Assembly (NCBI GenBank): GCA_965228735.1
Contig: OZ245838.1
Span: forward strand, 5,184,001-5,248,000
Length of the DNA: 64,000 nt
Direction of reading: 5' to 3'
Source of the DNA: Planctomycetota bacterium
GTDB lineage: Bacteria; Planctomycetota; UBA1135; UBA2386
Each line of letters opens with the position of its first letter. Within the stretch, counting starts at the first letter, position 1. The position numbers were made by a program, and so were the translations under genes. The notes under the pieces are model-generated. The model saw only the letters and a list, made by a program, of their open reading frames with translations, had not been told where the DNA came from and searched no databases. Shown piece after piece: positions 5,886-55,850 of the stretch.

Positions 5886-5930
5886 TTGACCGATCGCATC
5901 GTGAGTGGGTGTCATGTGCACGATACTTGA

Positions 5931-8563: not shown

Positions 8564-8565
8564 GG

Positions 8566-10272: not shown

Positions 10273-10439
10273 GGGCGAGGACCCCGGGGCACCCCGGGGC
10301 GGGGACACTCTTGACATCGCGATGCGTGCAGAGGCTTCCGCAGCATACTGGTTGAATCAGAGCGCCTCGAAAGACGGGAAAGGTCGACCGCTACTCGGAA
10401 GGAGGGCCCAGGTCCATCCGCCCCGCTACGCTCCGAGTT

Positions 10440-12452: not shown

Positions 12453-12479
12453 GGCTGAAGAGACAGTAGCCTGTATGGG

Positions 12480-30233: not shown

Positions 30234-30416
30234 AGGGCCTCTCAGCCCTTTACATAGGTGATGAGAACGAGATCCATCGCTGGCGAGCATCAGACTCTCT
30301 CCCCATTTCAGCACTCGAGAGTTGTTGGCCAAGGGAGCGCCCGCTCCTTTGGGATTGCCCGGACTCGCCGGGTGCTAGGCGGCGGATCGAAAGGTGGTCT
30401 CGCCGAGCTGACGCGA

Positions 30417-33400: not shown

Positions 33401-36400
33401 CAACAACCCGAACCTCATCGACTACGAGTACGAGGCCAAGACGAACCTCGTGAAGCGCGTCGTGCGCACGGAGTGGGACGAGCTCTCGAGTGCAGCGGCG
33501 GTGCTTGAAACCTCGTACGAATACGACGGGCTTGGCCGGGTCTCGAAGATCCTTGACGGCCCGTCTGGATTCCAGCTAGAGCACGAGTTTGCCTACTACT
33601 CAAGCGGCTTCACGGAGTGGTATCAGGATCCTGAGGACAAGGTCTTTCGATACCTGCCGGATGCCACAGGCCGTCTTGTCGAAAAGTTCCTGCCCGGCAC
33701 CGTGCCGATTTGGAACGAGTCGAGGTACAAGGACTGGACGGGGCTGAATGATCGAACAGAGGTTGTTCGCACGGATGGTCGAGGCCGGGTTACGCGTTCG
33801 ATTCATGACTTCTTCGGGCGCTTGCAGTCAGTCATGAACCCTGGGGCGGCGACCGAGCCGACCTCGACGTCGCCGAGTCAGCCGTTGGCGGAGTATTTCG
33901 TCTATGACGCAGCCTCGAGGCTCACCGGCGTTCATCAGGGTGATGATGTCTTCATTGCCCTCTACCGCGACGGAATGGGGCGGTTGTTGGTGCGGTCGAC
34001 TCCGTCGGCTGGCGCGAATCAGTTCGTGTCGTTCTACCACGGGCGCGACATATTGATTCGCAACGCCTTGGGACAGGTCACCTATGCCGCGAACCTGTAC
34101 GGCGCTGACGGAGGCGGCGGCTCCTATCACCAAGAGGCGCTCGCTCCGGACTCCCTGGGGCGGAACCACCGCGAGTCATTCAAGTTCCTGCTCGGCGACA
34201 ATTGGGTAGACATCGAGAGCGGTTTCTCGGGTGGAGATCAGGTCCGATCCTCGCTGACTTACGACAATAACGCTGGGGGCGACGGGCTTTGGCTCGATTA
34301 CACGCCGGATGCAGTTGGTCGCCTCGGCCAAGTTGATTGGCGGACGACAAGCGGCGGCACGCCCGAAGTGCTGGCGGAGTACAAGCATCAAGGTGGCCGA
34401 AGCCGACAACGCGCCACTCATTGGGCGGCCGGTGGCTCGAGCAGTTTCGACACGAACTATCGCTACGATGTGTCTGCGCGGGTGGATCGGATCACTCAGT
34501 CGTTCGGCGCGAGTGCCACGGTGGAGTTCTCTTACGACGACGCTAGCAACCTGCTTAAGGAGGAATACCAGAAGCAAGGTGGGGCCAGCCAGAAGGGGGA
34601 CCGATTCGCCTACGACGAACATCACCGCCTGGAATCGGCATGGTTGGGCGCAGATCAGCCTGAGCTCAATAGCCCTGGCACTGGTACTTTCGTAGAGAAG
34701 CTCACGTACGGGCTCGACACCGGTAGCAACCGCGACTGGGTGACGACACAGCTCGGGGTGGGAGGTGCTCTCACGACCGCTGACTACGAGACGCAGGATG
34801 CACCGCCGCAGGGGCCAAGCAACCGCTACTCGGATGCCGATGGCGTAGCCCCATTGTACGACGAGCGCGGCAACACGATTTTTGACGGGAATTTCTGCTA
34901 CGTCTACGACGATTTGAACCGGCTCACGGAGGTTTACATCCTGACTGGTGAGGAGTCGTCGTCTGCTTCGACGTCGCCGTCTTCCGGGCCGGCTGCCTCG
35001 GCGCCAAGCTTGTCTAGTCTGCGGGAGGCAGAGTTGGCTCGGGGTCAGTTCGAGGTTGCAAGCGTCGAAGTGCTGCGAATCGCACGATCGAGAATTCTTG
35101 GACGTATTCCTGGCGCGTTGAATTTGCTGCTCGAGCGGCAGTTCAGCTCGTCTTTCCGGGAGGGGTTGAGCGAGTCGATTCCGATAGCTGGTGCCAGCCG
35201 CACCACCAGTGGTTCTTCGTCGGCGTCCTCCGCATCGATGTCGTCGCCCCAATCTGGTAGTCAGGAGGGCGCGACTATGACGCTGTACGCGCTCTATCAA
35301 TACGACGCGATGAACCGGCGTGTGCATCGGACTCGATTCGGGTGGCAAACGTGGTTCACGGCTTGGGATGACTGGAGGGAAGTCGAAGAGCTCGTTTGGA
35401 ACGGCACGAATGTCGTGCCGCAGCGCCAGTTTGTATGGGGTGAGCAGCTCGATGAGCTGATCGCTTACCGGTTCAGGCAGCCGGGCACTGGCCCCGGCTT
35501 CGCGGATTACTTCGTCGCAGAGGGCGGCGCGCATTGTCCGTCTCGTATACTTGACGATTCTGGAAATGTTGTAGAGATTCAGGAATACAGTCCCTATGGC
35601 GCGGTGTCACACTTCTCTGGGGCGGGGGTGCCCCGGCTGGGGTCGGATGGTGCGGTAGGTAACGTCTTTGGGTGGAAGGGGCACAGGTGGGATCCCGAGA
35701 CCGGGCTCTTTTATGCGCGTAATCGGTATTACTCGAGTGCTTGGGGGAGATTCCTGACGCTGGACCCGATCGGAGTATGGGGGGATGTCGTGCAGCGCGG
35801 TAATGGTTATGCATACGGCGCTGCGAGTCCGTTAACAAATAGCGACCCGCTTGGACTTCAAGTCAGCAGCACGCACGCCGCTTGGGCCAAGGAGTACGGG
35901 ATGAAGCCCGGCGACAGTGTTAGTTTCGCCGAGACGCAGTTCTTGCCGGTGTCCGGTAAGCCCTACGAAGGATTGCGGATGTTTGATGATGGCAGGGTCG
36001 CTCCAATAAGCGCGGACGGAGCGATCGTGCTGACGCACTGGATGGATGAGTTGTCGCCTGGGGATCTGGCGATGCGAGATATCTATCATCTCATCGACGG
36101 GGCTTCATTCAATCTGTCCCATGCATGGGGGCCGAGTGTGGAGCCGGAGACTCTCGGTGAAATGGGGCTTCAGGTGGCTGGGTCATTCATTGTTCCTACG
36201 GGCGCGCTTGCCAAGCTCGCCCACAGGGCGGCAAAGCTCAGGAAAATCTGGAACATGGGCCCTCTTGCCCGCGGGCTAATTCTGGAGAGGTGGCTAGGGG
36301 CAAATCTGCCGCAAGGGTTCCGGATCTTTGACAGGTTGAGCAAATGTGGTAAAATCATTACGAGCATTAAGACGATTAAGCTGTCCAGTCCTAGCTACCA

Positions 36401-36623
36401 AAACCCAAATAGGTTGCGATCCTTGATCATGGGTTATGTCAACAAGGTCAGGAACGCATCCGGAACCATCAGGCAGGGTCGAACAAGTATCAACGTCGAT
36501 GGTATGGAGCGAGGGTTGCACATCGGCCTCGATTCTGTCGGCACGCCTGGTCAGCAACGCGTATTGGCGGATATACTCGAGACAGTGACTGATATTAAGA
36601 TCGAGATAACGGTGCTACGATGA
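30417..36623 (+). CDS. Rhs/YD-repeat polymorphic toxin with CdiA-EC869-like nuclease tip
   Basis: Many YD repeats; core DPETGLFYARNRYY..GRFLTLDP; PLTNSDPLGL boundary; tip RGL..E..NLP..F..FD...SIKTI....SY. Start uncertain (30258-30417). Confidence 0.92.
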   Translation: MIVAFAVLVAVASAQTSASPPTKPDPCPKERGIELTQPITDHRGDVEVEVHGSDDEEDDVPITGVPTGGETEGQGGGCILDSNPARCGDDTGQVRQVPEKPVEPSSGVGACPPTGQPGYVYLQNNICEWKDVNNDAALECVCEISLRPPGSMPPPPVYSPADPVAYPGGFYIADARDGVIKYSFWDANGNKLPRIEIRKPDGSIYRYEEINIVPNVRSYKLVEALDSHDNTTKYEWDVNGRLTEVHRPDGITESWNYAPSWIDNAIWHPANYSGIEITYYDHVNLTSLPELTWYLLFKKNGGGPLLGDLLYRKYAPRADYLADTAALGGQLYDESSKAVGHSVYQFTYEPDPNQVLIERVEQFIAGSILPNTEGPSETVREFEWVLAGDRKRVQKETVSLTGEVYTFTYTVDPAEDSRVLESRRTASDGTVLITKLDDHQRPTEVTTIPTNDSDGRPRAFDTDNGGHEEPTQITLKYEYSDCISCESRPTKIEHWANGSFTGRSVEYDYDAITGYVTEERVMDPSDGVGHVATTYEWSPLVPGDTKGAYKLDKVTTPDGEEWNYTYTLVPRFTPAGQLDRGKKIEFELVDAPTVSSGSAIPQAATQYDVSSPVFMSSGGQQRWVGFVKAVVDHDGVNTTFEHDTLLGHLTGVVRNPLGGNDSVEVNFVNDRLGRPLTVTTNVGSSLSQVTSIVRDDAGRVSTVVANVGSQTVETRSFYDRWGNVCVSQRRNENASGSAPDDYGPTPRAEAARTWLRDEFHCIGNRLSATFEDRRPLDRDSPSADPLVDAAEARYLLTVYDWTRGGFIKSISHPNGSETVFTYDGYQSLYKVEHKSIGQPTVLDRKLFVNDVLEVVRVFRGDSNLELATTIERNASGRVERVTEPEPDTPPGYTGPPTYAKHEFDADQMGRITEVRVVDALTTSVVARETRQYDEVGRPWIRRAFDPSVPATPLAVHTTEWEGMGKVKKVTDPAGRFVERSYDALARLTQIKDSLPNNPNLIDYEYEAKTNLVKRVVRTEWDELSSAAAVLETSYEYDGLGRVSKILDGPSGFQLEHEFAYYSSGFTEWYQDPEDKVFRYLPDATGRLVEKFLPGTVPIWNESRYKDWTGLNDRTEVVRTDGRGRVTRSIHDFFGRLQSVMNPGAATEPTSTSPSQPLAEYFVYDAASRLTGVHQGDDVFIALYRDGMGRLLVRSTPSAGANQFVSFYHGRDILIRNALGQVTYAANLYGADGGGGSYHQEALAPDSLGRNHRESFKFLLGDNWVDIESGFSGGDQVRSSLTYDNNAGGDGLWLDYTPDAVGRLGQVDWRTTSGGTPEVLAEYKHQGGRSRQRATHWAAGGSSSFDTNYRYDVSARVDRITQSFGASATVEFSYDDASNLLKEEYQKQGGASQKGDRFAYDEHHRLESAWLGADQPELNSPGTGTFVEKLTYGLDTGSNRDWVTTQLGVGGALTTADYETQDAPPQGPSNRYSDADGVAPLYDERGNTIFDGNFCYVYDDLNRLTEVYILTGEESSSASTSPSSGPAASAPSLSSLREAELARGQFEVASVEVLRIARSRILGRIPGALNLLLERQFSSSFREGLSESIPIAGASRTTSGSSSASSASMSSPQSGSQEGATMTLYALYQYDAMNRRVHRTRFGWQTWFTAWDDWREVEELVWNGTNVVPQRQFVWGEQLDELIAYRFRQPGTGPGFADYFVAEGGAHCPSRILDDSGNVVEIQEYSPYGAVSHFSGAGVPRLGSDGAVGNVFGWKGHRWDPETGLFYARNRYYSSAWGRFLTLDPIGVWGDVVQRGNGYAYGAASPLTNSDPLGLQVSSTHAAWAKEYGMKPGDSVSFAETQFLPVSGKPYEGLRMFDDGRVAPISADGAIVLTHWMDELSPGDLAMRDIYHLIDGASFNLSHAWGPSVEPETLGEMGLQVAGSFIVPTGALAKLAHRAAKLRKIWNMGPLARGLILERWLGANLPQGFRIFDRLSKCGKIITSIKTIKLSSPSYQNPNRLRSLIMGYVNKVRNASGTIRQGRTSINVDGMERGLHIGLDSVGTPGQQRVLADILETVTDIKIEITVLR

Positions 36624-37063
36624 CAAAGGCGACAGCTGCGGCGAACCTTAGACAGTGGAAGGGCGTGTTTATGGCCAACCCCAGCCGTGTCCATGGTGGG
36701 CTTATGGTGGAAGCCCTGCCGGTCATTGTGCTTGCCGAGGACGGGGTGAGCCCCGAGTCCGTCGGAGGCGCAATTCGAGATAGTTTGGAAGTTTCTTCAC
36801 GCTTGAAGGCTTGTGATATGGGATCAGAGGCTGTCCTCCTCAGAGAACTTAGAGCTAGGTCTTGGAGGGAGCTCGAAAGAAAGGCGAAGACAGTTTCAAT
36901 AACGGAAGAGCCTAATGGTATTTGTTTTACTCCGTTGTTCGCGTTCGACGATCCAAGGGAGGGAGAGTACGGGATGTCTGGAGACCTGGAGGTCCGGAGG
37001 CCGCTTGAGTCCTCGCGTGCAGAGCTCGGCGCGCTGGCCCTTGAGTTACTTGGTGGGACATGA
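36620..37063 (+). CDS. Cognate immunity protein, CdiI/DUF1436-like
   Basis: ATGA overlap with the toxin; PESVGGAIR..L and SWREL..KAKTVSI...FTP...ELGA patterns. Confidence 0.75.
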   Translation: MTKATAAANLRQWKGVFMANPSRVHGGLMVEALPVIVLAEDGVSPESVGGAIRDSLEVSSRLKACDMGSEAVLLRELRARSWRELERKAKTVSITEEPNGICFTPLFAFDDPREGEYGMSGDLEVRRPLESSRAELGALALELLGGT

Positions 37064-38874: not shown

Positions 38875-38919
38875 ATGGGGTGCAGGGGGTCGGAGGTTCA
38901 AATCCTCTCGCTCCGACCA
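38875..38919 (+). other. 3' fragment of tRNA-Pro(GGG), att site
   Basis: atggggtgcagggggtcggaggttcaaatcctctcgctccgacca has anticodon loop, T arm, acceptor strand and CCA; the required 5' strand (cggagcg) is absent. Confidence 0.9.
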
Positions 38920-40379
38920 TTCTTCACTTCCTGCTCTTCGAGCAGGAGGTCGAACGGCGAACGTGCGATCACTTCGAGAGTTGCGCCGTTCAGGGTGAGG
39001 TTCAAACTCACGATGTCGAGGATCAGGCGCTTCGTCGCCGGATCTGCCGTAAGCCACTTCGCGGCAAGCTGGTCGGCGAGTTCAAACGCCTTGACCGCGG
39101 TTTCGCTGCGATCGGTCTGATCCTCGCCCTCGGCCTGGAGGTCCTCCTCCAACTCCGCGGCGCGATCGCGGAGCTGCTGCGCTTTGCGGTGGTAGCTCTG
39201 CTTGTCGATTTCGCCGTCGAGGTGGAGGTCGAGCAGACCGTCAAGACGCTCCCGAACGCGGGTCAGCTCGCCTTGCAGACGAGATCGTCGCGCCTTGGCG
39301 TTGTCTCGGTCCGCGCGTGTTCTCGCTCGGAGCGCCGTGACGAACCAGTCGCGCAGTTCGCGATCGTCGAGTCGGAGCGATCGGAGGAAGTTGAGGACCT
39401 GTTCGTTCAGGTCGCGCTCAGGGACTCGGTGACGTTCGTGCCCGGGTGCATTGTAGCGGCTGCACCGGTAGTAGACGTAACGGCGATCAGCCTTCTTGAT
39501 GACCTCGCCGGTGATGCGCTTCCCGCACTGGCCGCAGTCGATCAGTCCCGCGAAGGTTGCCTCGTGTGTCGAGTATCGGCGGTCGCCAAGCAGGGCTTGC
39601 ACACGCTCGAAGGTCGTGCGGGCGATCAGCGGCTCGTGTGTGCCGGGGTGCCAAGCTCCCTTGTAGGCGACTTCGCCGATGTAGGAGCGATCGCGTAGGA
39701 TCGAGTGCACCTTCGATCGCGTGAACCTCGGGGTCCTGGCTGTGTAGACAATGCCCTCGGCTCGCATCCTCCGTAGGAGTGCGTCGATCGTGCAATCGCC
39801 GCCCGCGTAGAGATCGAACATCCTGTGGACCTTTGGACCGTTCTCCCGATGGATGCGCACTAGGCTCCGTCCGCCCTCATCGCGGTAGTTCTGATAGCCG
39901 AAGGGAGCCTTGTTAGGGAACAGTCCTTCGGCGACCCTCCGATCGCGTGCTTCGATGATCTTCTCGGCACTCTGACGGATCGCGAAGCGCGCGAGAATGC
40001 CCTGAATCCCGATGGTCAGCTCTCCTGCTGGATTCGATCCGTCCAGGCTGCCGTCGACTACGAAGATGCGCAGATCGTAGGCTTCCTGGAGCCGCTCCAG
40101 CTCGGCAAGATCCTGGAGGTTCCGGGCAGCGCGGTCGACGCTCTTGAAGATCACGCCGTCGAGGCGCCGGTGGTGTCGTCGCAAATAGTCGAGCAGCTCG
40201 CGGAAGGCCGTCCGCGAGCTGCTGGTCTTGGCGGACTCGGCGACGGCGAACATCTCAACAATCACCCCATTCAGTCTGCTGGCGTGCGCGTGGACGGCGT
40301 CGTGTTGGCATTCCAGGCTAAAGCCCTCTCGCTCCTGCTCCCGGGACGAAACCCGGCAGAATCCGACGAACCGCTTCAT
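38898..40379 (-). CDS. Large serine recombinase (integrase)
   Basis: CRVSS, DRAARN, recombinase domain APFGY...YIG..G.HEPLI, Zn ribbon CGQCG...YYRC, coiled coil; the stop lies in the tRNA fragment. Confidence 0.95.
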   Translation of the reverse strand: MKRFVGFCRVSSREQEREGFSLECQHDAVHAHASRLNGVIVEMFAVAESAKTSSSRTAFRELLDYLRRHHRRLDGVIFKSVDRAARNLQDLAELERLQEAYDLRIFVVDGSLDGSNPAGELTIGIQGILARFAIRQSAEKIIEARDRRVAEGLFPNKAPFGYQNYRDEGGRSLVRIHRENGPKVHRMFDLYAGGDCTIDALLRRMRAEGIVYTARTPRFTRSKVHSILRDRSYIGEVAYKGAWHPGTHEPLIARTTFERVQALLGDRRYSTHEATFAGLIDCGQCGKRITGEVIKKADRRYVYYRCSRYNAPGHERHRVPERDLNEQVLNFLRSLRLDDRELRDWFVTALRARTRADRDNAKARRSRLQGELTRVRERLDGLLDLHLDGEIDKQSYHRKAQQLRDRAAELEEDLQAEGEDQTDRSETAVKAFELADQLAAKWLTADPATKRLILDIVSLNLTLNGATLEVIARSPFDLLLEEQEVKNGRSERI

Positions 40380-40798
40380 GCGACCCTCCAGCCCGCCAAA
40401 CGACCAATGCTCTGGAGCGCGGACACCGCCGCACTCAGGGACACCGGCGCGAACCGGCGTCTCTGCAGGACGCACGCAGTTTGGGTCAACAAGTCCTCGC
40501 TGACCCACGCGGGGCGCTCTGTCGCTAGTTCCGCAACTTGCGTGCGCATGTGCTCCATCGTTCGTCGACAACACGATACGAGATCCGTTTGCCACCCGCT
40601 GCGCAGCCCGCCTTGCTCGTCCACGTTGTCCAACCACCAACAGCGGATCGCGTAGTTCGCCCAGTAGTCGGTCTCACTCGCGTCCAGGATGAGACGTGCT
40701 TCGTTCTCGAACGACGCGTAGTCATGCTGGGCGAACGCATACATCTCGCGCAACTGCTGTTGCAGCGCTGCGTGAAGCTTCGGGCTCACTCGGCTCAT
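40376..40798 (-). CDS. Hypothetical protein coupled to the LSR
   Basis: ATGA overlaps with both neighbours. Confidence 0.7.
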   Translation of the reverse strand: MSRVSPKLHAALQQQLREMYAFAQHDYASFENEARLILDASETDYWANYAIRCWWLDNVDEQGGLRSGWQTDLVSCCRRTMEHMRTQVAELATERPAWVSEDLLTQTACVLQRRRFAPVSLSAAVSALQSIGRLAGWRVA

Positions 40799-41357: not shown

Positions 41358-43094
41358 TCACGAAGTAAGGGCGTGCACCACTGACTCAGCTAGCTGCGAT
41401 GACACTCGTTCCCGTGTCGTCAGCGACCTTTCTAGCCGATCGCAGAGAGCCATCATCTCGTCGATCGCTGCTACGATTGTCTGCTGCTCGCTGCTCGGGG
41501 GCAGGGGAATCGGCACAGAGCGGAAGATGGGCAAAGTGAGTCGAAGTCGCGTTGAGCCGAAGGCTGCTCGGAAAGCGAACTGGCGAGCAGTGACGGAATT
41601 CAGGAAGTGCATCACGTAGCGGGGATGAGCCAGCGACGAGTTCAACTCCAGTTTCATCACATCGGGAGTGAGCATGGCTTGGCCTATTCCCTGGGGGTAG
41701 ATGCAGCAGTCGCCCGGCGGGTCGCCAAGCTTCGTCACCAACAGCTCGCCACCGGAGACCGAGTATTCCTGGAATAGCTCCACCCACTTGTCATGGTCCA
41801 TGTAGGTAGGTCGAGCCGTTCGGTAGTCATCGGGCTTCACATGGCGCAGGAAGATGATTGGCACGCCCTCTGGTCGAAAGTCCTTCGCCTTGAAGATTGT
41901 TCCGAAGGGACCGGCGCAAATGGCCTTCGGCTTGTTCGAGGCGAGCTGTTCGACTGTCGCCCACGTCCACCCGGGAGGAAGGCCGGGTAGTCCGTTGGTG
42001 TCCGGAGGAATGGGATCGGCATACCGCGTTTTCCACTTCGAGTTCTTGTGGGGCTTGCCTCTGGCCTGCGCAGCTTGCAGTTGTTGTTGCTCCCACCGTT
42101 CTCGTCGATCTCGCAGCGCCTGTTCGAGCGACAGTTTGGCGTCGTCACCACTCTCTTCTTGCTCAACCAGACGGCCTCGAACTGCGAGTTGCAAGACTGC
42201 CTGCCGAAGCACCGGCACGCTATCCGAGTGCTCGGTGACGGCTCCCCAGTTCTCCCGCACGCGATCCCACGCTTCGGCCAGATCGTCAGCGGACTCCGCG
42301 CGGCTGAGCGCGTCCATGGCCGAGGTCTGGAACGAGCGGCGGACGGCGTGGCGGCGCTCCTGCCTCTCCTCCAGCTCGTCGCACAGCGCCATCAGTTCGT
42401 CGACCTTGGCGACGATGCGGTCCTGCTCCTCGATCGGTGGAAAGGCCACGAGCAAGCTTGTGACGTCGTCAGTGGCAAGCCGGCAGGTTCCGTGTGTGGA
42501 ACGCTCGACCAAGTCCAGCACGTCGCGGCGTCGACCGCGAAGATGCAGATGGACGAAATCGGCGATCCTGTCGTTCCGCAAGATCAACGCCTTCATGTCC
42601 TGGTTGAGTGTCACACTGACAGTGTTGATCGCGACAGGAAACGAGTGCGCGAGGATCATGCCGCGCACGACCATGAGGATTGCTCGCGGAGGCACCATCT
42701 TCACGGGCGTCTTCTCGACCGCGAGGTCCGTCACGGTGTCCTGGCTGCCATCGATCAGCGGGCGCTTCATGTCTTTCGGGCTGACCCAAGGGATCGAGCC
42801 GCCCCAGAACTCGCTGTTCTTCTTCGATGGCGTTCCTCCGCCCCGCATCTGTCCGAGGTCTCCAAGGCGCACCCATGCCCATCCGACAGGAAGATCGAAG
42901 GGCGGATTCTCGGGTTCGATCTGGGCTTCGATGCGTTGATCCGCGAGCCACGAAGGTGCTGATTCGTCAGTGGGGTCTTGTTCGACCACCTTGCCCCGAA
43001 CCGCTAAGCGAAGGATCAGTCGCCGCAACTGCTCGACGCCTCCTTCTGCGGAGGCCATCGTCCCGAACCTCAGCATGAGCTGGTCTCGGTCCAC
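41358..43094 (-). CDS. hsdS: Type I R-M specificity subunit
   Basis: Two TRDs (LP.GW.W..., PP..EQ..IV), repeated LAVRG..VEQ. Confidence 0.95.
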   Translation of the reverse strand: MDRDQLMLRFGTMASAEGGVEQLRRLILRLAVRGKVVEQDPTDESAPSWLADQRIEAQIEPENPPFDLPVGWAWVRLGDLGQMRGGGTPSKKNSEFWGGSIPWVSPKDMKRPLIDGSQDTVTDLAVEKTPVKMVPPRAILMVVRGMILAHSFPVAINTVSVTLNQDMKALILRNDRIADFVHLHLRGRRRDVLDLVERSTHGTCRLATDDVTSLLVAFPPIEEQDRIVAKVDELMALCDELEERQERRHAVRRSFQTSAMDALSRAESADDLAEAWDRVRENWGAVTEHSDSVPVLRQAVLQLAVRGRLVEQEESGDDAKLSLEQALRDRRERWEQQQLQAAQARGKPHKNSKWKTRYADPIPPDTNGLPGLPPGWTWATVEQLASNKPKAICAGPFGTIFKAKDFRPEGVPIIFLRHVKPDDYRTARPTYMDHDKWVELFQEYSVSGGELLVTKLGDPPGDCCIYPQGIGQAMLTPDVMKLELNSSLAHPRYVMHFLNSVTARQFAFRAAFGSTRLRLTLPIFRSVPIPLPPSSEQQTIVAAIDEMMALCDRLERSLTTRERVSSQLAESVVHALTS

Positions 43095-44545
43095 TAGCCT
43101 CGCTCCAGCGCGCCCTGGAGAGCTGCTCGAAGTCTCTCCCGAACGTCGGCAGCCTGAGTGGTCACTTCTTCCAGCGACGCGAGCAGCTCGTCCGGGTCTC
43201 CCGGCCCGTCGTCAGGCGCGTTCGGGTTCTTGATGTCGAGGTTGTAGGAGCGCTCCACGATCGTCTCGATCGGCACGCGCCATGCCTGTTCGCTCTCCTT
43301 GCGGTCTTCCCACCACGCCTTCTCCGAATCGAACTCCTCGATCCGCATCGGTTTCGTCTTCGAGTAGCTCTTGTAGCCCGGCGGATAAGGGTGTTCGTAG
43401 AACCACACTTCGCTCGTAGGTTCGCCCTTCGTGAAGAACAGCACGTTGGTCTGGATGCCCGTGTAGGGGCTGAACACGCCCTTCGGTAGGCGGACCAGCG
43501 TGTGCAGGTTGCAGTCCTCCAGCAGGCGCTCCTTGATTCTTGTCTTCACGCCCTCGCCGAAGAGCGAGCCGTCCGGCAGCACCACAGCAGCCCTTCCTCC
43601 GGGCTTGAGGAGCGTCAGGATCAGCACGAGAAACAGATCCGCGGTTTCGCGGGTTCGATACTCCGCGGGGAAGTTCGCTTCGATCCCGTCTTCCTCGATC
43701 CCGCCGAACGGCGGGTTGGTCACGATGACGTCGACACGATCGCGCGGGCCATAGTCGCGCAACGGACGCGTCAGCGTGTTGTCGTGGCGGATGTTGGTCG
43801 GCACATCGATGCCATGCAGGATCATGTTCGTCGTGCACAGCAGGTGCGGGAGCTGCTTCTTCTCGACGCCGGAGATGCTGGCCTGGAGCTTCGCCTCCTG
43901 CTTCGGCGTCTTGACCTGCTCGCGGACGTGCTCGATGGCGCAGGTCAGGAAGCCACCGGTGCCGCAGGCGGGATCGAGGATCGTCTCGCCGAGCTGCGGG
44001 TCGACCATGTCCACGGCGAACTGCGTGACAGCGCGGGGCGTGTAGAATTCGCCGGAGTTGCCGGCGCTCTGGAGGTCCTTGAGGATCTTCTCGTAGAGGT
44101 CGCCCAGGGCGTGGCGCGTCTTGCTGTCGTTGAAGTTGATCGCTTCCTGGATCTTGTTGACGACCTGCCGGAGCAGTGTGCCCGACTTCATAAAATTGAA
44201 GGCGTCGCGGAACACTTCGCGGACGACCATCGCACGATCACGAACCGCTCCTTCGGCCGGCAGCTCGACCAAGGCCGGGAACAGATGGTTGTTCACGAAG
44301 TCGCTGAGGTCGTCGCCGGTCATCCCCTCGGGGTCGGCAGCCCAGTTGCGCCAGCGGAACTCGTCCGGGATCGGCGACTCGAAGTCCTCGTCGAGCAGCT
44401 CCTGCTCCTGCTCGCGGTCGTCGTAGATTTTCAGGAACAGCATCCAGCCGAGCTGCTCGATGCGCTGGGCGTCGCCGTTGATGCCGACGTCCTTGCGCAT
44501 GATGTCCTGGATGCCCTTGATCGAATTGCCCAACGACGCCGTCAC
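43094..44545 (-). CDS. hsdM: Type I R-M m6A methyltransferase
   Basis: [19 protein letters not shown]. Confidence 0.97.
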
Positions 44546-46917
44546 GCTGCCCCCTCCACTCGGTAAAGCTCGGCCTCCAGCTCACGGAGCGCCTGCTGGT
44601 AGTTCTCCTTCCCGCCGAACCAGCCGACCAGCTCGACGGGCGTCCCCATCTCGCTGAACGGCTGCACGCGCAGGACGCCCATCTTCTCGACTGGGACGAT
44701 TCCCTGGTCGGCATATTTGTCGAGGAGTGCGTTCAGCACGCGGCGCGCGGGCTCGCCGAACTTGGTGAACACATCGCGCTTGCGAACATTCTCCGCGCGC
44801 TCCCGGCGGCTCAGTGGCGGCTGGTCGAACACGACGTGGCAGATCAGGTCGAAGGGATCGAGTTCGCGTCCGACCTGATCCGCCAGCGCCTCGATGAGGA
44901 GCCCTTCGTCGCGCAGCTCGTCCAGGATGGCCTTCTTCTTCTCGGCGGTGTTCCATGCCTGGAGAAAGTCGTCCAGCGACGCGAACCGATCGCGAACCGA
45001 GCGTCTCGTGTAGTCGCGCAGAGACTCGGTGATGAGCTTGCCGTCGTTGCCGTAGTATTGGACGCGCTCCGCGACGACGGACACCCCGACGCCGGAGACC
45101 ACGTATTTCTGCCGGCGGCCGCGGTCGTCATCGTCGCCGCCGCCGGTGTCCGTGTCGTCGGGCGTGACGAGGATGTCCTCGATATCCGGATCGTTCTGGA
45201 GGTCGTCGGGATCGACGTCGTCCAAGTCCGGCGGGACGATCGTGTCGTCGTCGTCTGGCCGGTAGACCTGCACGGGGGCTCCGTCGAACTCGGGATCGGC
45301 GAACAGCTCCGTCGCCTTCTTGAAGTCGACGATCGTGAAGTAGAGCTTGCCGGCGTCTTCGTGGATGCGTGTGCCGCGCCCGATGATCTGCTTGAACTCG
45401 GTCATCGACTGGATGCGCTGGTCGAGGACGACGAACTCACAGGTCTTCGCGTCAACGCCGGTGCTCATCAGCTTCGAGGTGGTGGCGATCACCGGGTAGC
45501 GCTCCTCGGGGTGGATGAAGTTGTCGAGCTGAGCCTTGCCCTGCTCGTTGTCCCCGGTGATGCGCATGACATATTTGGAGTTTTCGCGCGCTCGCTCGGG
45601 GTTGGCGTTGACGATCGCCGAGCGCATCCGCTCGGCGTGGTCGATGTCTTCACAGAAGACGATGGTCTTCGCGTAGGGCTTGCCTGAGCCTTCCAGCAGC
45701 TCCACGACCTTCTTAGCGACCAGCTCGGTGCGCTGCGTCAGGACTAGCTCACGGTCGAAGTCCTGCTGGTTGTAGATGCGGTCCTCGATGACCTCACCGG
45801 TGTCGTCCTGCTGGCCGCGCTCCGGGCGCCAGCCTTCGAGATCCTTGTCGAGGTCGACACGAATGACCTTGTAGGGCGCAAGGAAGCCGTCCTCGATTCC
45901 CTGCTTGAGGCTGTAGGTGTAGACCGGGTCGCCGAAGTAGGCGATGTTCGAGACGTCCTTCGTCTCCTTGGGCGTCGCCGTGAGCCCGATCTGCGTCGCC
46001 GACTTGAAGTAGGTGAGGATCTCGTGCCAGCGCGATGCTTCACGAGCGCTCGATCGGTGGCACTCGTCGATCACGATCAGGTCGAAGAAGTCGGGTGAGA
46101 ACTGCTTGAAGACGTTGTCCTCTTCCTCGGTGCCGGAGATCCCCTGATAGAGCGCGAGGTAGATCTCGTAGGACTTGTCGATCTGCCGCTTGCGGATCTT
46201 CGTCATCGCGGCGCCGAACGGCTTGAAGTCGTTCGTGATGGTCTGGTCGACGAGGATGTTTCGGTCGGCGAGGAACAGGATGCGACGCTTGTGCTTGGCC
46301 TTCCACAGTCGCCAGATGATCTGGAAGGCTGTGTAGGTCTTGCCCGTGCCGGTCGCCATGACGAGCAGGATGCGATCCTGCCCGCGGACGATCGCCTCAA
46401 CCGTGCGGTTGATCGCGACACGTTGGTAGTAGCGCGGCTCCTTGCCGCTAGCGTCCTCGTAGTAGGGCGAGGTGACGCGTTCGGTCTTCTCGTCGTCGAG
46501 CCCCTTCCAAGCGCAGTAGCGCTGCCAGAGGTCGGCGGGACTCGGGAACTGGTCGAGCGCGAGGGTCTGCTCGACCGGGTTCTGCTGGCCTGTGCGATCG
46601 TGGAAGAGGAAGCCCGAGCCGTTCGAGCTGAACACGAACGGGATGTCCAGGGTGTCGGCGTAGGCGAGCGCCTGTTGCATTCCGTCCCCAACGCTGTGGG
46701 AGGTGTCCTTCGCCTCGACGATCGCGAGTGGCAGGTTCGCCTTCCACTGGAGGAGGTAGTCGGCGCGCTTCTTCTTGCCGCGTGCCACGCAGCGACCGCG
46801 AACGATGATGCGACCCGCGGTGAACGTGACCTCTCGCCGGACCTGCCGATCGAGGTCCCAGCCAGCCTGTTGGATGGCCGGGCTGATGCGGCGCATGCAG
46901 GTTTCGGTCTCGTTCAT
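44542..46917 (-). CDS. hsdR: Type I R-M restriction subunit, EcoAI/EcoEI-like
   Basis: ADY..VEAK nuclease, [24 protein letters not shown]. Confidence 0.97.
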
Positions 46918-46936: not shown

Positions 46937-47158
46937 TCACGGCTTGCCTGCCCGAAGCTGCTGACTGGCTCGCTCCCACGCCTGGAGGAGAAGTTCGGAC
47001 ACCGTCATGCCAAGGAGTTCGGCGTCCCTGCGCATCAGCTTCTTGGTCTTCGGGGTCACGCGCAGCTTGATGAACTCTGTTCGGCGCTCCCGCGGAACCA
47101 ACCGTTTGGCGCGCGAGCCGCGAGGCTGCTCTGTCTCTTCGTGCGGAGGGTGGGTCAC
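46937..47158 (-). CDS. Ribbon-helix-helix protein upstream of hsdR
   Basis: [33 protein letters not shown]; start uncertain. Confidence 0.7.
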
Positions 47159-47267
47159 GGTGGTGCTCTGTCGAAGTGCTTGAAAAGCCCCGTCCCTGTG
47201 GTCACATTCTGTGGTCCTCACCGATGGTGGTCAAGCGATCGGTGGCACCGATGCGCGAGGAGCTGAT

Positions 47268-48077
47268 GTGGCGACGATCGTCTCATGCGTGAATCTGAAA
47301 GGAGGCGTTGGCAAGACTGCCATCGCCGTCAACTTCGCTGCCTACTGCGGCGCGCACGGGAAGAGAGTTCTTCTTGTGGATCTAGATCCGCAAACCAACG
47401 CCACGTTCTCGTGCCTGACCGTAGAGGAGTGGCGGGAGCACTCCGCACATCACGGCACGATCGCCGACCTTCTCGGTGCGCGGCGCAGCACGAACGCGGA
47501 GGGACGTGCGACGGACCCAAGTGACGTCGTTCGGGACGCTGTCTTCCCAGGGGTCGATCTGATCCCGTCTCACCTCGACTTGTTCACGGTCGACCTTGAT
47601 CTAGCTTCAACCACAGCCCGAGAGACGAAGCTCCGCAGGGCGTTTCGCGACATTCTGGACGACTACGATCTGGTCGTCTGCGACTGCCCTCCGAATCTCA
47701 CCATTCCGACCCAGAACGCGTTGGCCCTGAGTAGCCACTACGTGGTCCCTGTATCACCGGACTATCTCTCCGGATTGGGGGTCGCGCTGCTCGTCCGCCG
47801 AGTCCAGGAGTTCGCCAGTGACCTGGAGTTGCCCATCGAGCATGCCGGCATCGTGATTTCCAGGGTCGGGCGACCGGCTGAACACCGGGATCAGGTGATG
47901 GCGTCGCTTCGGCAAGAGTTCGGGGAACTCGTTCTGGGCACCCAGATCACGGAGCGAGTCGCTGTGAGTGAGGCGGCTTCCCGGCAGATGCCGATTTACG
48001 ACTCCGGCAACGCCGATGCATCAGCAGAATTCTCAGCCGTGTCCCGCGAGATACTTGCACGGGTAGGTCTTGAATGA
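47268..48077 (+). CDS. ParA/Soj-family ATPase
   Basis: KGGVGKT, VDLDPQ.NAT, DCPP; GAGGAG before GTG 47268. Confidence 0.93.
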   Translation: MATIVSCVNLKGGVGKTAIAVNFAAYCGAHGKRVLLVDLDPQTNATFSCLTVEEWREHSAHHGTIADLLGARRSTNAEGRATDPSDVVRDAVFPGVDLIPSHLDLFTVDLDLASTTARETKLRRAFRDILDDYDLVVCDCPPNLTIPTQNALALSSHYVVPVSPDYLSGLGVALLVRRVQEFASDLELPIEHAGIVISRVGRPAEHRDQVMASLRQEFGELVLGTQITERVAVSEAASRQMPIYDSGNADASAEFSAVSREILARVGLE

Positions 48078-48454
48078 AATCACACACGCTGGCACGGGCT
48101 CTGAAGCAGCTCGCCGACATCATGCTTGACGGACCGAACGTCGAAGTCTCGCGGTTGGATCTTGACGATCGCTCCGCGGGGCGGGCAAGCTCCTCATCTG
48201 AGTTGGCAGTGAACATCGACACGCTGCTGGAGCTATCGAGAGTCGACAAGGTGCAGTGGAAAGCGTTCATCGACGAGTATTCGCTGGAGGTCGCCGTTTC
48301 CTCGAAGGACTCCACGCGGAACATCCTCGGAAAGGTCCTGTCGTTCTTGGAGAAGAGCGAAGCCGCGCGGAAGAGGGTGAAGGCGGCAGCAACCAGAAAG
48401 AGCGATACCTCTCCAGAACTGTCTAGAGCTTTGGCTGCGCTGCTGAACGACTAG
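48074..48454 (+). CDS. Hypothetical helical protein
   Basis: ATGA-coupled to the ParA gene. Confidence 0.8.
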   Translation: MKSHTLARALKQLADIMLDGPNVEVSRLDLDDRSAGRASSSSELAVNIDTLLELSRVDKVQWKAFIDEYSLEVAVSSKDSTRNILGKVLSFLEKSEAARKRVKAAATRKSDTSPELSRALAALLND

Positions 48455-48456
48455 CA

Positions 48457-49230
48457 ATGCAGCATCTGGCGAGTGAGATCGAAGCCAACTTCCGGCGTTT
48501 TCAGAAGAAGAGCGCGGAAGAGTGCAGAGCAGCTGAGACCGCGCTGAAGTCCCATGACGCCGTGTTCAGTCGCAGCTACAAGCGACTCGTCTCGCTGCAA
48601 GCGTGGAGGGCTGACCTCTTGGAGTCGGTCGTCGCGGGCGACGCGCTCGCGTTCTTCATAGAGGCTCAGAATGATGGGCTGGCTGCTCACGCGCTTGCGT
48701 CGCTCGGATCATGGCGAGCGTCGCTTCAGTCTCTGCGCGGCTGCATCGAGAACGTTCTCTGCTGTCTCTACTACATGGACCATCCCGTGGAGTTGCAGCT
48801 GTGGGAAGAAGGAGATCAGCGATTGGCGTTCAGCGAGCTGTTCTCCTACTTCGAGCTGCACCCGAAGACTCGCGCGAAAAAGCCCAAGCGCTCCGGGTTG
48901 TCGCCTCGCGTTGCGGCGGTGCCTACGCTCCAAGACGAGTATCGAACGTTGTCACGGTCAGTTCACGCGTCGCAAGATTGCTTCCGGATGACAACTGGCA
49001 CCGGCGGACAGACGAACCTGTGGGACGGGGCGAAGAAACGGCTCAGCATGTGGGAGACGCGGGAGAGGACCACGCTTAGCGCGGTGAATCTGCTTCTCTT
49101 GGCTGTCTTCAGAGAGCATCTGTCCGGGGCTAAGCTTCGGTCAGTTCGCAGCGCTGTGGGGCTGGCTGTCCCTCAATCCAAGCACGGCGATGTCCGTAGC
49201 GAGCTTCGAGTGTCGCTGCTGCGCGGGTAG
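48457..49230 (+). CDS. Hypothetical protein, HEPN-like
   Basis: G.W..S..SLRGCIE and EYRTLSRSVH patterns; 2 bp after the previous stop. Confidence 0.7.
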   Translation: MQHLASEIEANFRRFQKKSAEECRAAETALKSHDAVFSRSYKRLVSLQAWRADLLESVVAGDALAFFIEAQNDGLAAHALASLGSWRASLQSLRGCIENVLCCLYYMDHPVELQLWEEGDQRLAFSELFSYFELHPKTRAKKPKRSGLSPRVAAVPTLQDEYRTLSRSVHASQDCFRMTTGTGGQTNLWDGAKKRLSMWETRERTTLSAVNLLLLAVFREHLSGAKLRSVRSAVGLAVPQSKHGDVRSELRVSLLRG

Positions 49231-49387: not shown

Positions 49388-49978
49388 ATGACCACGAAAC
49401 TGCCGGTCGAGGTCCTGACACGGACGGAGCTGGACGCCCTGCTGAGGGCTTGCAACCGACGATCGCCATCAGGGCTTCGAGACCGCGCTCTGATCGCGCT
49501 GCTCTATGGCAGTGGCCTTCGCGTCGCCGAGGCGCTTGCGCTTCGACCGAGGGACGTCGACCTCGATGCCGGGACCGTGCGCGTCCACCGCGGCAAGGGT
49601 AGCAAGGCTCGCGTGAGTGGGATCGAAGAAGGCATGGGCGCCGTGCTGCGCGAGTGGATCGACTACCGTGCCCAGGCTCTCGCTCTCAACGGCACGAAGC
49701 CCCTTTTCTGTCAGATCACGAAGGGGCGAGTCGGCGAACCCGTGCAGCAGGCGTGCGTGCGTCAGATGCTCCGGCGTCGCACCGCGAAGGCTGGCATCGA
49801 GAAGCGCGTCCACGCGCATGGCCTCCGGCACTCCCACGCCGCCAACATGGCGGCGGCCGGCATTCCGATCAACGTCATCCAGCGCCAGCTCGGCCACTCG
49901 AACGTCGCCACGACCAGCCGCTACCTGGATCACGTCCAGCCCGCGGATGTCGTCGAGGCGGTGCGACGCCTCGGGTAG
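49388..49978 (+). CDS. Tyrosine recombinase, catalytic domain only (FimB-like size)
   Basis: RD..GLRVAE, GKG, HGLRH, LGH, TSRY. Confidence 0.93.
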   Translation: MTTKLPVEVLTRTELDALLRACNRRSPSGLRDRALIALLYGSGLRVAEALALRPRDVDLDAGTVRVHRGKGSKARVSGIEEGMGAVLREWIDYRAQALALNGTKPLFCQITKGRVGEPVQQACVRQMLRRRTAKAGIEKRVHAHGLRHSHAANMAAAGIPINVIQRQLGHSNVATTSRYLDHVQPADVVEAVRRLG

Positions 49979-50069
49979 ATTCCGCGGCACGCCTGGATCA
50001 GCGCGCGGGGCTCGAAGTGCGGTTGTGTCGTTGGGTGTCATGGGGCTCCCCCGATTTCGGGGCGCTCAG

Positions 50070-50205
50070 ACGGCGATTGACCGACTAAACGAGTGACCGA
50101 ATGGTGGCTCCGGACAGCGTTTGACCGTCGGTCAATCGCGGTCCGTCGCGTTCGAAGGGGCTGATCCTCCAGGCTGCACGGCCAACGGCGATTGACCGAC
50201 GGTCA
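50070..50205. repeat. Cluster of direct and inverted repeats
   Basis: acggcgattgaccgac at 50070 and 50185; perfect 18-bp IR 50122-50139 versus 50188-50205. Confidence 0.85.
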
Positions 50206-50307
50206 TTCGATCTGGAGAGCTGACGCAACAGGTCGGCGGGCGCGTCGATCAACACACGGAGCAGCAGGGCAGCGCTAGAGCGGAGACAGATGGCGCTGCA
50301 CCGCTGG

Positions 50308-51672: not shown

Positions 51673-52389
51673 ATGAGGAAGAGGGACCCCCGAACCGTGC
51701 GATTCGAGTTCAAGCAGGAACTCGACTGGCTCTTGGATCACTACGATCGGATGCAGACCCACGTCGAGGCGGGGGACCCGAAGCACCGCTTGCACGACCG
51801 GGGGCAGTTGGCGTGCTCGACTTTCATCGCCGCCTTCACCGAGTTCGAGGGTTTCCTGTCGAACCTGTTTCTGGCCTACCTCAACAAGGACTTCTCGGTC
51901 TACCGGACGTGGCTCAAGACTCGCTTCGACACCTCGGTGAAGGGGAAGTTCGGTGTCGGTGTCCTGAGTCGGGCTGCCCTCAAGATCCCCGAGCATGTGA
52001 GCCTCTCGGGCGTCCGAGATATCGTGGACTCCGACGGTTGGAATCTGACCTTCAAGAACGCCGATGCGATGATCGACCGTGCGAAGGAGTGGCTTGCGAC
52101 GCCGCACGCCAACCGAGTCAGTTCCCTCGATGCCCATGACAAGCGCCTCTTCGACACCGCGATTGCGATTCGGAACTACATCGCTCACGGCAGCGACAAC
52201 GCTCACGTCGTGATGAACAAGAAGCTAGCGACGGTGGACGGGGGTGGGCCAAACGCTGGGCTTGGTCGGGGGAGTCGGCAAATCAACGATGCCGGGAAGT
52301 TCTTGAAGAAGCAGGTCTGGTCGCGCGGTGGCGATCGGATGTGCTCCTTCTACTTGGAGCGGTTGGAAGCGATCTCGCAGAAGCTCTGA
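51673..52389 (+). CDS. HEPN-domain protein
   Basis: FTEFEGFL helix and RNYIAH (Rx4H); AGGAG SD. Confidence 0.8.
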   Translation: MRKRDPRTVRFEFKQELDWLLDHYDRMQTHVEAGDPKHRLHDRGQLACSTFIAAFTEFEGFLSNLFLAYLNKDFSVYRTWLKTRFDTSVKGKFGVGVLSRAALKIPEHVSLSGVRDIVDSDGWNLTFKNADAMIDRAKEWLATPHANRVSSLDAHDKRLFDTAIAIRNYIAHGSDNAHVVMNKKLATVDGGGPNAGLGRGSRQINDAGKFLKKQVWSRGGDRMCSFYLERLEAISQKL

Positions 52390-53667: not shown

Positions 53668-53718
53668 TTGATCACGGCGAGCTTTGGCCTAGGATGCGGA
53701 TATGCAGATAAGCGCATC
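53668..53718 (+). promoter_or_regulatory. Putative ars promoter and ArsR operator
   Basis: TTGATC-16 nt-TAGGAT, 6 nt before the ATG; imperfect 26-bp IR gatgcg..tat....ata..cgcatc at 53693-53718. Confidence 0.55.
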
Positions 53719-54069
53719 TCCAGATGCCACCCTCGCGGCCACGTTCAAGGCGGTTGCTGACCCGACTCGGGTGCGCATCCTCGCGACGATCCTCGCTGCG
53801 GGCGAGCTCTGCGTCTGCCATGTGGAGGCCGCACTCGGGATCACGCAGTCTCGCGCCTCTCGTCACCTCGCCACGCTGCGGCGAGAGGGGCTGATCGTCG
53901 ATCGGCGGGACGGCGCGTGGGTGCACTACAGCGTTCCAGAACCGAGAGATCCGGCTGTTCGGTCCATCCTCGCTGCCGTGCGGGAGTCGGTGAGTACGGA
54001 TCCCGAGGTCCAGGCGGCCGCGGCGCGCGCGGCCTCCTTGCGGGACGGGGACGACTGCGGAGGAATGCG

Positions 54070-54073
<4 letters not shown>
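53702..54073 (+). CDS. arsR: ArsR/SmtB repressor
   Basis: [23 protein letters not shown]. Confidence 0.93.
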
Positions 54074-55202
<1,129 letters not shown>

Positions 55203-55206
<4 letters not shown>

Positions 55207-55850
55207 CCACGGCGTCCGAAGGTCGGAGTTTCGAGGTGCTCGCGGACTACGTCGCAGCCCGCCTCGGAGAGTCGGATCTCATCGCTGCCACGCGCCAGGA
55301 AGAGCTCATGACGCTCGTCGAGACGATCGCGACACAGCTCGACATGCACGGCGCCGTGGACCTGGTCTTCATCTGCACGCACAACTCGCGTCGCAGCCAG
55401 TTCGGCCAGGTGTGGGCGGCGCTTGCGGCCGAACACTTCGCCGTGGCCGGGGTGCGCACCTGGTCGGGCGGGACGGAGGTCACGGCCTTCGCGCCACCCG
55501 CCGTCTCGGCGCTCGCCCGCGCCGGGCTGCAGGTCGAGAAGGAGACGGAGGGATCGAACCCGATCTACCTGGTCGAGCCGGGCCAGGCTCGGGCTCCGAT
55601 GCGGTGCTGGTCGAAGCGGTTCGACGACTCCCCGAACCCCAACACCAACTTCGTGGCGGTCATGACCTGTTCGACGGCTCATGAAGCGTGTCCTTTGGTC
55701 CGTGGTGCGGCGCACCGGGTGGCGATCACCTACGAGGACCCGAAACTCCATGATGGGAGTCCACGCGAAGCGGCTACGCACGACGAACGATGCCGGCAGA
55801 TCGCGCGTGAGATGCTGTTCGTGTTCGAGCGGCTGGCTGCGAGTCGCTGA
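55203..55850 (+). CDS. LMW-PTP-fold protein (arsenate reductase-like)
   Basis: [12 protein letters not shown]-loop, SGGTE, MTC...ACP, YEDP. Confidence 0.88.

What the first reader, a model, noticed from the sequence alone, without database searches (positions are those of the whole stretch)
47268..49230. ParA / small protein / HEPN-like triad: candidate new defence or addiction system
Seen: a tightly coupled three-gene operon divergent from type I R-M, with no ParB-like gene or obvious parS array. Inference: ParA repurposed as a sensor controlling a HEPN-like effector through the 126-aa partner. I do not recognise it as a named system.
Basis: partly seen in the sequence, partly recalled or inferred. 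Interest (0 to 1): 0.7.

Follow-up and report, generated by a model that had tools for sequence, protein, structure and literature searches.

The report
RemAIN-like ParA–HEPN anti-phage gene trio
These three linked genes (an ATPase, a small partner and a protein with a predicted RNA-cutting fold) always travel together and likely form a phage-defence system of an already described kind, related to Salmonella RemAIN, so this is a new branch of a known system rather than a new system.

Summary
The operon is ParA-family ATPase (47268-48077), a 126-aa protein (48074-48454) and a 257-aa protein whose model matches HEPN structures best (Z 11.4). No ParB or parS is nearby; the host's own ParAB/parS lies about 710 kb away. 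Gene 2 precedes gene 3 in 85 of 85 related loci, and ParA sequence precedes both in 71 of 71 loci long enough to tell (2 only as fragments). Restriction-modification genes flank 19 of 53 loci scanned, and one copy is a prophage insert.

It is not new as a kind. A 2026 preprint (Li, Burroughs, Aravind) describes ParA-HeH subtype iv (ParA + HeH protein + HEPN); its tested example appears to be Salmonella RemAIN, an anticodon-nuclease defence. I fetched RemAIN: order and sizes match, and the gene-3 profile hits 43 of 56 RemN homologues against 0 of 56 reversed controls. Both use R-x3-E plus Y-x3-[S/C]-x2-VH instead of a conserved Rx4-6H. The window's clade is distinct (ParA 29% to RemA; gene 2 not directly alignable to RemI).

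Best reading: abortive-infection defence by a latent HEPN RNase, restrained by gene 2 and switched on through ParA. Activity, trigger and binding are inferred. Interest 0.3.

The parts
47268..48077 (+). Gene 1: ParA-family (deviant Walker A) ATPase, 269 aa; RemA counterpart. Invariant in 52 of 52 homologues: N9, K11, V14, K16, D38, D40, Q42, W55 (in the insert after beta-2), D139, R199, R202, R207, R230
48074..48454 (+). Gene 2: 126-aa helical partner with a likely helix-extended-helix (HeH) core at about residues 50-99 and N- and C-terminal helices; RemI counterpart by position, predicted inhibitor/sensor
48457..49230 (+). Gene 3: 257-aa HEPN-fold protein of the DUF5677-like group, homologous to RemN; invariant E69, R94, H109, E112, H170; predicted RNase effector
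47258..47262 (+). Shine-Dalgarno-like AGGAG 5 nt before the GTG of gene 1
   Evidence: sequence
46937..47221 (-). Context, not part of the trio: small ribbon-helix-helix ORF (NikA-like) upstream of hsdR
41358..46917 (-). Context: type I R-M hsdR, hsdM, hsdS (divergent; not found beside the trio in L001-L005)
49388..49978 (+). Context: tyrosine recombinase catalytic domain, 196 aa

Best explanation
The trio is likely an abortive-infection anti-phage system of the ParA-HeH subtype iv (RemAIN-like) kind, in which a predicted HEPN RNase is likely kept silent by the small partner and likely switched on through the ParA ATPase when an invader appears. Shown: three coupled genes that co-occur strictly, intact ParA ATPase motifs, a HEPN-like model with invariant R94 and H170, homology of gene 3 to RemN, a patchy distribution and island or prophage settings. 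Inferred from RemAIN and ParA biochemistry: the three proteins form one unit; gene 2 is the inhibitor and may read invader DNA with its HeH core; ATP-bound ParA dimers, carrying conserved arginines and a variable insert, detect replicating phage or prophage DNA or a phage protein; the released HEPN dimer cuts RNA, most likely tRNA anticodon loops, which stops translation and phage production at the cost of the infected cell. The trigger and the RNA target are unknown for this clade.
For: Synteny: gene 2 upstream of gene 3 in 85 of 85 loci; ParA upstream in 71 of 71 with enough sequence, 14 too short. Two more distant gene-3 hits from whole-genome searches (L194, 130 bits; L199, 92 bits) are also ParA + middle gene + gene 3. 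Fold: model pLDDT 95.8; the four best of 48,161 chains are HEPN proteins (2hsb Z 11.4, rmsd 3.3, 123 aligned; 3o10; 1ufb; 1wol), with LsoA, HepT, AbiA and RnlA further down; 54 of 101 members touch DUF5677 at E<=0.1. RemAIN: same order and sizes, 279/130/220 aa; gene-3 profile hits 43 of 56 RemN homologues at E<0.01 and 0 of 56 reversed; profile-profile E 1e-4 over 207 columns; shared R-x3-E and Y-x3-[S/C]-x2-VH-x-S columns. ParA tree: trio, RemA and two-gene ParA+small-partner rows lie on one side of a branch apart from 10 other viral-contig ParAs (support 86; 89). Context: R-M genes in 19 of 53 loci, TA/Abi genes in 3 more; intact copy inside a Mu-like prophage head region (L113); 2 of 301 genomes of the host phylum; this ParA clade in 0 of 30 relatives. 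[quoted passage not shown]
Against: No experiment on this clade. The canonical Rx4-6H arginine is not conserved (R163 in 5 of 101), though RemN lacks it too. Foldseek found no match at E<=0.001, and Z 11.4 is under the tool's caution level of about 13 for helical bundles. The RemN link is remote and lopsided: hhalign probability 57.9; the RemN profile hits only 1 of 248 gene-3 family proteins; HEPNs in other contexts (L200, L201, beside a different ATPase) score as well (32.6-32.7 bits) as the best RemN homologue (29.8). Gene 2 does not align directly to RemI; the bridge through L194 is weak (E 4e-4 and 4e-3). ParA is 29% identical to RemA, no closer than to ordinary ParAs (up to 36%). L084 has a frameshifted gene 2 beside an intact gene 3, awkward for an essential inhibitor unless it is an assembly error. 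No background rate was computed for R-M neighbours.
Confidence: 0.7

Rival explanations
1. Defence, but ParA and the HeH protein do the main work: they coat or block invader DNA or its ParB, and the HEPN is only a backup or a non-catalytic RNA binder. This is the model the 2026 preprint proposes for ParA-HeH systems in general.
For: The nearest ParA relatives outside the clade (34-40%) are followed by one 126-168 aa gene and no gene-3 or RemN-like gene was seen; they were sister to the trio in one tree (support 90). The Rx4-6H arginine is not conserved. ParA arginines R199, R202, R207, R230 are invariant. Preprint section 14.
Against: H170 and R94 are invariant in 100 of 100 diverse homologues, which suggests catalysis; RemN has the same motif and is reported as the nuclease. 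The one long viral locus with this ParA clade carries all three genes (L113); L114 and L115 end at the ParA.
Confidence: 0.15
2. Addiction module: gene 3 is a stable toxin, gene 2 a labile antitoxin, and ParA couples them to the presence of the island, killing cells that lose it.
For: Toxin-antitoxin-like order and translational coupling; lies among recombinase genes in a low-GC block.
Against: No gene-3 match in 72,556 plasmids; flanks are not shared between loci and often hold defence genes; the tested relative is anti-phage.
Confidence: 0.08
3. Type Ib-like partition cassette: gene 2 binds a centromere and stimulates ParA; gene 3 is a passenger.
For: ParA followed by a small basic protein (median pI 9.0, 56 of 71 above 8); intact ATPase motifs.
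Against: Gene 3 is tightly coupled; no repeat array; gene 2 is modelled all-helical, not ribbon-helix-helix; best plasmid ParA only 36% identical; the host and 4 of 4 other carriers have separate ParB genes.
Confidence: 0.03

Closest known systems
ParA-HeH system, subtype iv with PHEPN1 (Li, Burroughs, Aravind, bioRxiv 10.64898/2026.10.19.760177; abstract, sections 12-14 and search passages read, supplements not seen)
   Same: ParA with N and V in the Walker A region and Q after DxD, an insert after beta-2, a small fast-evolving partner with a likely HeH core and helical extensions, and a third gene with a HEPN fold; no ParB.
   Different: I could not check which of the 22 PHeH clusters gene 2 belongs to, or whether this clade is in their set. 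The preprint gives predictions only for members other than the Salmonella one.
RemAIN (STM14_3218-3220, Gifsy-1 of Salmonella Typhimurium 14028s; Sargen and Helaine 2024, not held; known here from passages of PMC13043305, PMC9879122, PMC13492144 and from sequences fetched)
   Same: Gene order, sizes, overlapping genes, ParA + small partner + HEPN; gene 3 homologous to RemN with the same non-canonical motif columns.
   Different: Separate ParA clade (100 support each; 29% identity); gene 2 not directly alignable to RemI; gene 3 is 257 against 220 aa; mostly chromosomal islands of environmental bacteria, not lambdoid prophages of enterobacteria.
Two-gene ParA + small partner loci (likely minimal ParA-HeH subtype i; L116-L128)
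   Same: Nearest ParA relatives by identity (34-40%); partner of similar size.
   Different: No linked HEPN seen; partner alignable to gene 2 only over 20 columns (E 0.03).
HEPN RNase toxins (HepT/MNT, RnlA/LsoA, AbiA C-terminus, HepS)
   Same: Fold matches at Z 7-11.4 for HepT, RnlA/LsoA and AbiA; terminal histidine of the motif is invariant. HepS was not compared.
   Different: No conserved Rx4-6H arginine; no MNT partner; long N-terminal helix and extra C-terminal helices.
ParABS / Soj partition ATPases
   Same: ParA fold and ATPase motifs (Soj 1wcv E 7e-30).
   Different: No ParB or parS at the locus; about 20 extra residues after beta-2; obligate HEPN partner.

Membership tests
ParA-HeH subtype iv | ParA with PriB1/ConB1 marks (N before Walker A, V inside it, Q after DxD) | tested here: met
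   N9, V14, Q42 in 52 of 52; marks as described. Soj shares them, so they are not specific.
ParA-HeH subtype iv | Variable insert after core strand beta-2 of ParA | tested here: met
   20 gap columns in Soj 1wcv opposite query residues ~48-95; variable block around invariant W55
ParA-HeH subtype iv | Second gene carries an HeH domain with helical extensions | tested here: inconclusive
   Model has helix 59-68, extended 69-80, helix 81-94 plus flanking helices; Rho N-terminus 1a62 aligns to residues 50-99 (Z 3.5, rmsd 2.5, 46 aligned), but all Z are under 5 and death-fold chains rank as high; no HeH Pfam family among the 25 of 67 families shown
ParA-HeH subtype iv | Third linked gene is a HEPN (or REase) effector | tested here: met
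   Top four structural matches are HEPN; DUF5677 in 54 of 101; linkage 85 of 85
ParA-HeH subtype iv | ParA falls in the ConB1 branch; proteins match the PHeH1-22 and PHEPN1 profiles | not testable with these tools
   The preprint's reference sets are in supplements not seen. My quick trees group the trio with RemA and two-gene ParAs at support 86-89 only.
RemAIN | Order ATPase - small protein - nuclease, tightly coupled | tested here: met
RemAIN | Nuclease homologous to RemN | tested here: met
   43 of 56 against 0 of 56 reversed; hhalign E 1e-4, 207 columns. Remote: the reverse search gives 1 of 248.
RemAIN | Middle protein homologous to RemI | tested here: inconclusive
   Direct profile comparison E 0.53; weak two-step link through L194
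RemAIN | ParA inside the RemA clade | tested here: not met
   Separate clades, each with support 99-100; 29% identity. So RemAIN-like, not a RemAIN orthologue in the narrow sense.
RemAIN | tRNA anticodon cleavage and phage protection | not testable with these tools
   Needs experiments
Canonical HEPN RNase | Conserved Rx4-6H motif | tested here: not met
   H170 in 101 of 101, but R only 5 of 101 at position 163 and none among the six commonest residues at 164 or in any row at 165; the window copy alone reads R163-x6-H170
ParABS partition | Adjacent ParB and parS | tested here: not met
   No ParB_N in the window; no ParB family among 138 neighbour proteins at E<=1e-8; sole parS about 710 kb away
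PADLOC 2.0 systems | Profile hits for the component proteins | tested here: not met
   Only a Walker-A-level hit to PDC-M28B; RemAIN itself has no hit at E<=1e-6, so the library does not cover this kind

The most novel reading that the evidence does not exclude
Gene 2 is a compact death-fold (CARD-like) adaptor rather than a plain HeH inhibitor, so the trio would be a ParA-nucleated signalosome that clusters and fires a HEPN RNase with an unusual split active site (R94 from the first motif helix plus H170). Leads: the gene-2 profile hits the BCL10 CARD at E 0.0023 over 39 columns, and CARD/DED/death-domain chains fill many top structural rows at Z 3.4-4.1 with about 70-83 residues aligned. These scores are within noise for small helical proteins.
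Probability: 0.07. Interest if true: 0.75.

Novelty: new member of a known kind. Interest (0 to 1): 0.3.

Why it matters
It extends RemAIN-like defence from enterobacterial prophages to a separate, strictly conserved clade seen in Verrucomicrobiota, Desulfobacterales/Desulfovibrionales, Pseudomonadota and many metagenomes, which PADLOC 2.0, Pfam and NCBIfam miss (genes 2 and 3 have no hit). The alignments made here could serve as detection profiles. The comparison with RemN points to candidate catalytic residues (R94, H170) for HEPNs without Rx4-6H, and gives a second, distant system in which to ask how a partition-type ATPase switches on a nuclease. The kind of system is already described, so a specialist would find it useful more than surprising.

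Tried and rejected
Complex prediction for the three proteins was not available, so binding is untested. Foldseek against PDB gave nothing at E<=0.001 for gene 3 or gene 2. Sequence searches of PDB with the gene-3 profile gave only two E 1.5 hits. Pfam on 94 gene-2 members gave scattered weak hits. The ESM Atlas gave unnamed clusters for gene 2, and unnamed, DUF6988 (17% of members) and DUF5677 (22%) clusters for gene 3. The Sargen and Helaine 2024 paper is not held; what I say of RemAIN comes from other papers' passages, and matching the preprint's reference 98 to it is my inference from the description. H25/L086, fetched as a possible RemA, is a different ParA pair. A tblastn for ParB in 89 loci found only weak HTH-level hits in L019 but detected just 1 of 4 control loci, so it is insensitive. 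One ParB_N domain lies about 7 kb past gene 3 on the L003 contig, outside the operon. No RNA holder listed. Promoter/terminator scan: one promoter-like site on the minus strand and two terminator-like sites, near chance level. No earlier findings of this scan matched. The careful ParA tree did not finish; both trees are quick trees. A viral scan with the deep gene-3 alignment could not run. Rejected: partition cassette; obligate link to the type I R-M next door (no hsdR/M match in L001-L005); canonical Rx4-6H site.

Full report
OBSERVATION. The three ORFs are there as described: 47268-48077 (269 aa from a GTG with AGGAG 5 nt upstream), 48074-48454 (126 aa) and 48457-49230 (257 aa), with a 4-nt overlap and a 2-nt gap. 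Gene 1 is a ParA-family ATPase (AAA_31 E 3.8e-40; Soj 1wcv E 7e-30). Genes 2 and 3 hit nothing in Pfam, PADLOC or NCBIfam at E<=0.1. A type I R-M operon is divergent (41358-46917), with a small ribbon-helix-helix ORF between. The host is a single 7.19-Mb contig of 69.4% GC. Its parAB pair and only consensus parS lie at 4.52 Mb, near the GC-skew minimum at 4.57 Mb; none of three ParB_N hits is in the window. The trio sits in a block of 60-65% GC holding a serine recombinase, a tyrosine recombinase and a second HEPN-like gene.

CONSERVATION. Gene 3 fetched 5 loci from genome contigs and the best 80 of 163 from metagenomes. With profiles of the three genes, gene 2 was directly upstream in 85 of 85 and ParA upstream of that in 71 of 71 loci with enough sequence; 14 were too short. 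A few loci are near-duplicates (I skipped L027, L051, L056, L067 later). Two of the 71 hold only ParA fragments (L070, L085), and L084 has a frameshift in gene 2. In 50 complete trios the gaps between genes run from -26 to +15 nt, and median pairwise identity is 58% for ParA, 40% for gene 2 and 44% for gene 3. The gene-3 profile finds 121 clusters at E<=1e-30 and 702 at E<=0.001 among 1.84 billion representatives. Distribution is patchy: 2 of 301 genomes in the host phylum, host included; 3 of 401 and 4 of 401 in two other phyla, centres included and most hits remote; the ParA clade was not found in 30 relatives searched. No gene-3 match in 72,556 plasmids. I scanned 138 of 216 called neighbour ORFs, from 53 loci, dropping mostly short ones: 19 loci carry R-M genes and 3 more carry BrnA, AbiEii/Schlafen or AbiU2; no ParB family appeared (E<=1e-8; no background rate). 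L113 has an intact trio between head genes of a prophage that looks Mu-like (my reading of the flanking ORFs).

GENE 3. The model (pLDDT 95.8) matches HEPN proteins best among 48,161 chains: 2hsb (Z 11.4, rmsd 3.3, 123 aligned), sacsin HEPN, 1ufb, 1wol, then Roquin, LsoA, HepT, AbiA, RnlA. Foldseek found nothing at E<=0.001. 54 of 101 members touch DUF5677. H170 is invariant, as are E69, R94, H109 and E112 in 100 diverse homologues, but the arginine of Rx4-6H is not conserved (R163 in 5 of 101).

GENE 2. Model confidence is moderate (pLDDT 75.8). Residues 50-99 align to the Rho N-terminal domain (Z 3.5, rmsd 2.5, 46 residues), and FAN1 and T4 endonuclease VII also appear, but no Z reaches 5 and death-fold domains rank as high; the profile hits BCL10 CARD at E 0.0023. 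HeH is the likelier reading given the literature, not a result of my tests alone. Most members are basic (median pI 9.0).

GENE 1. Walker A lysines, DxDxQ, Walker B D139 and four C-terminal arginines are invariant in 52 of 52, so ATP binding is likely intact; a DNA-binding role for the arginines is inferred from Soj (own knowledge). It has about 20 more residues than Soj after beta-2.

WHAT IS KNOWN. A literature search returned Li, Burroughs and Aravind (bioRxiv 10.64898/2026.10.19.760177; I read the abstract, sections 12-14 and search passages; supplements not seen, and they may list this clade). It defines ParA-HeH systems; subtype iv adds a HEPN (PHEPN1) or REase, and one member from Salmonella is reported as an anti-phage, prophage-competition system with anticodon nuclease activity. 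[quoted passage not shown] The primary RemAIN paper is not held.

TEST AGAINST RemAIN. A published primer fetched seven viral contigs with the locus: 279, 130 and 220 aa in the same order. The gene-3 profile picked out RemN and its homologues (E 1.8e-6 to 1.3e-3) and L113, and nothing else under E 0.6, among + strand ORFs of L086-L192. It hit 43 of 56 RemN homologues against 0 of 56 reversed; profile-profile E 1e-4, probability 57.9, 207 columns. R94/E98 and Y162-S166-V169-H170-S172 pair with RemN's invariant R86/E90 and Y134-C138-V141-H142-S144, so the tested nuclease also lacks Rx4-6H. Against: the reverse search hit 1 of 248, and HEPNs from other contexts (L200, L201) score as high as RemN. 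Gene 2 and RemI do not align directly; the middle gene of the intermediate trio L194 links weakly to both. ParA is 29% identical to RemA. In quick trees the window's clade (100) and RemA (99-100) are separate; with two-gene ParA loci and the intermediates L194 and L199 they stand apart from other viral-contig ParAs at support 86-89 (the second tree left out the long-branch host and L086 rows).

MECHANISM. Most likely (0.7): abortive infection. Gene 2 restrains a latent HEPN RNase; ParA, with gene 2, detects invader DNA or protein and releases it; RNA, probably tRNA, is cut and translation stops. Architecture, motifs, fold and homology are shown; binding, trigger, catalysis and target are inferred. 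Rivals: ParA/HeH block DNA directly with HEPN as backup (0.15), addiction (0.08), partition (0.03).

VERDICT. A real, strictly conserved trio; it works like RemAIN and fits ParA-HeH subtype iv on the features I could test, with the HeH call inconclusive. It is a distinct clade, not a narrow RemAIN orthologue. New member of a known kind; interest 0.3.

Noticed in passing
window 38875-38919 and genome 5,178,114-5,178,190: 45-bp exact copy of the 3' end of tRNA-Pro(GGG), 44.7 kb after the intact gene, next to a serine recombinase (38898-40640): an island integrated at tRNA-Pro whose right end falls just before the block holding the trio.
   Followed up: partly
window 3792-13418: Defence cluster: PD-T4-3 match (5934-6689, E 3.6e-48), a PDC-M55C/HEC-05-like protein (6953-8560), an ABC-type ATPase (8566-10269) and unassigned ORFs.
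   Followed up: partly
window 51673-52389 (+): Stand-alone 238-aa protein with a weak RiboL-PSP-HEPN match (E 4.4e-5, under cut-off) and an RNxIAH motif.
   Followed up: no
window 50069-50220: Nested direct and inverted 16-36-bp repeats just after the tyrosine recombinase gene; possible recombination sites.
   Followed up: no
window 46937-47221 (-): Ribbon-helix-helix ORF (NikA/TacA-like) upstream of hsdR, with a sigma-70-like site at 47234-47206 on the same strand.
   Followed up: no
window 30258-37060 (+): 2121-aa ORF followed directly by a 147-aa ORF; layout suggests a polymorphic toxin with immunity gene; no PADLOC hit, Pfam not run.
   Followed up: no
L003:1228-4790, L018:1699-5281, L029:1158-4757, L044:385-3961: Recurrent neighbour pair: a ~585-aa DNA methyltransferase (PglXI/type II-like) divergent from a ~490-aa protein with HEAT repeats (HEAT hit in L018, L029, L044; none in L003).
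   Followed up: partly
L026:7381-9285: RtcB RNA ligase just downstream of a trio, with a sigma-54 activator 2.5 kb further; recalls RemAIN's link to the RNA repair operon, but is a single locus.
   Followed up: no
L002:1316-1933: Gene 2 with an internal duplication of its central-to-C-terminal part (205 aa), showing that part is a modular unit.
   Followed up: no
L200:2-2196 and L201:1378-3584: Remote gene-3 homologues coupled to a ~480-aa ATPase-like protein instead of ParA; a possible separate two-gene defence system.
   Followed up: no
L116-L128: Viral-contig ParAs followed by one 126-168-aa helical partner, likely minimal ParA-HeH systems.
   Followed up: partly
window 53702-55850 (+): ArsR-like regulator, Acr3-like transporter and ArsC-like gene at the island's right edge, read from the translations only.
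   Followed up: no
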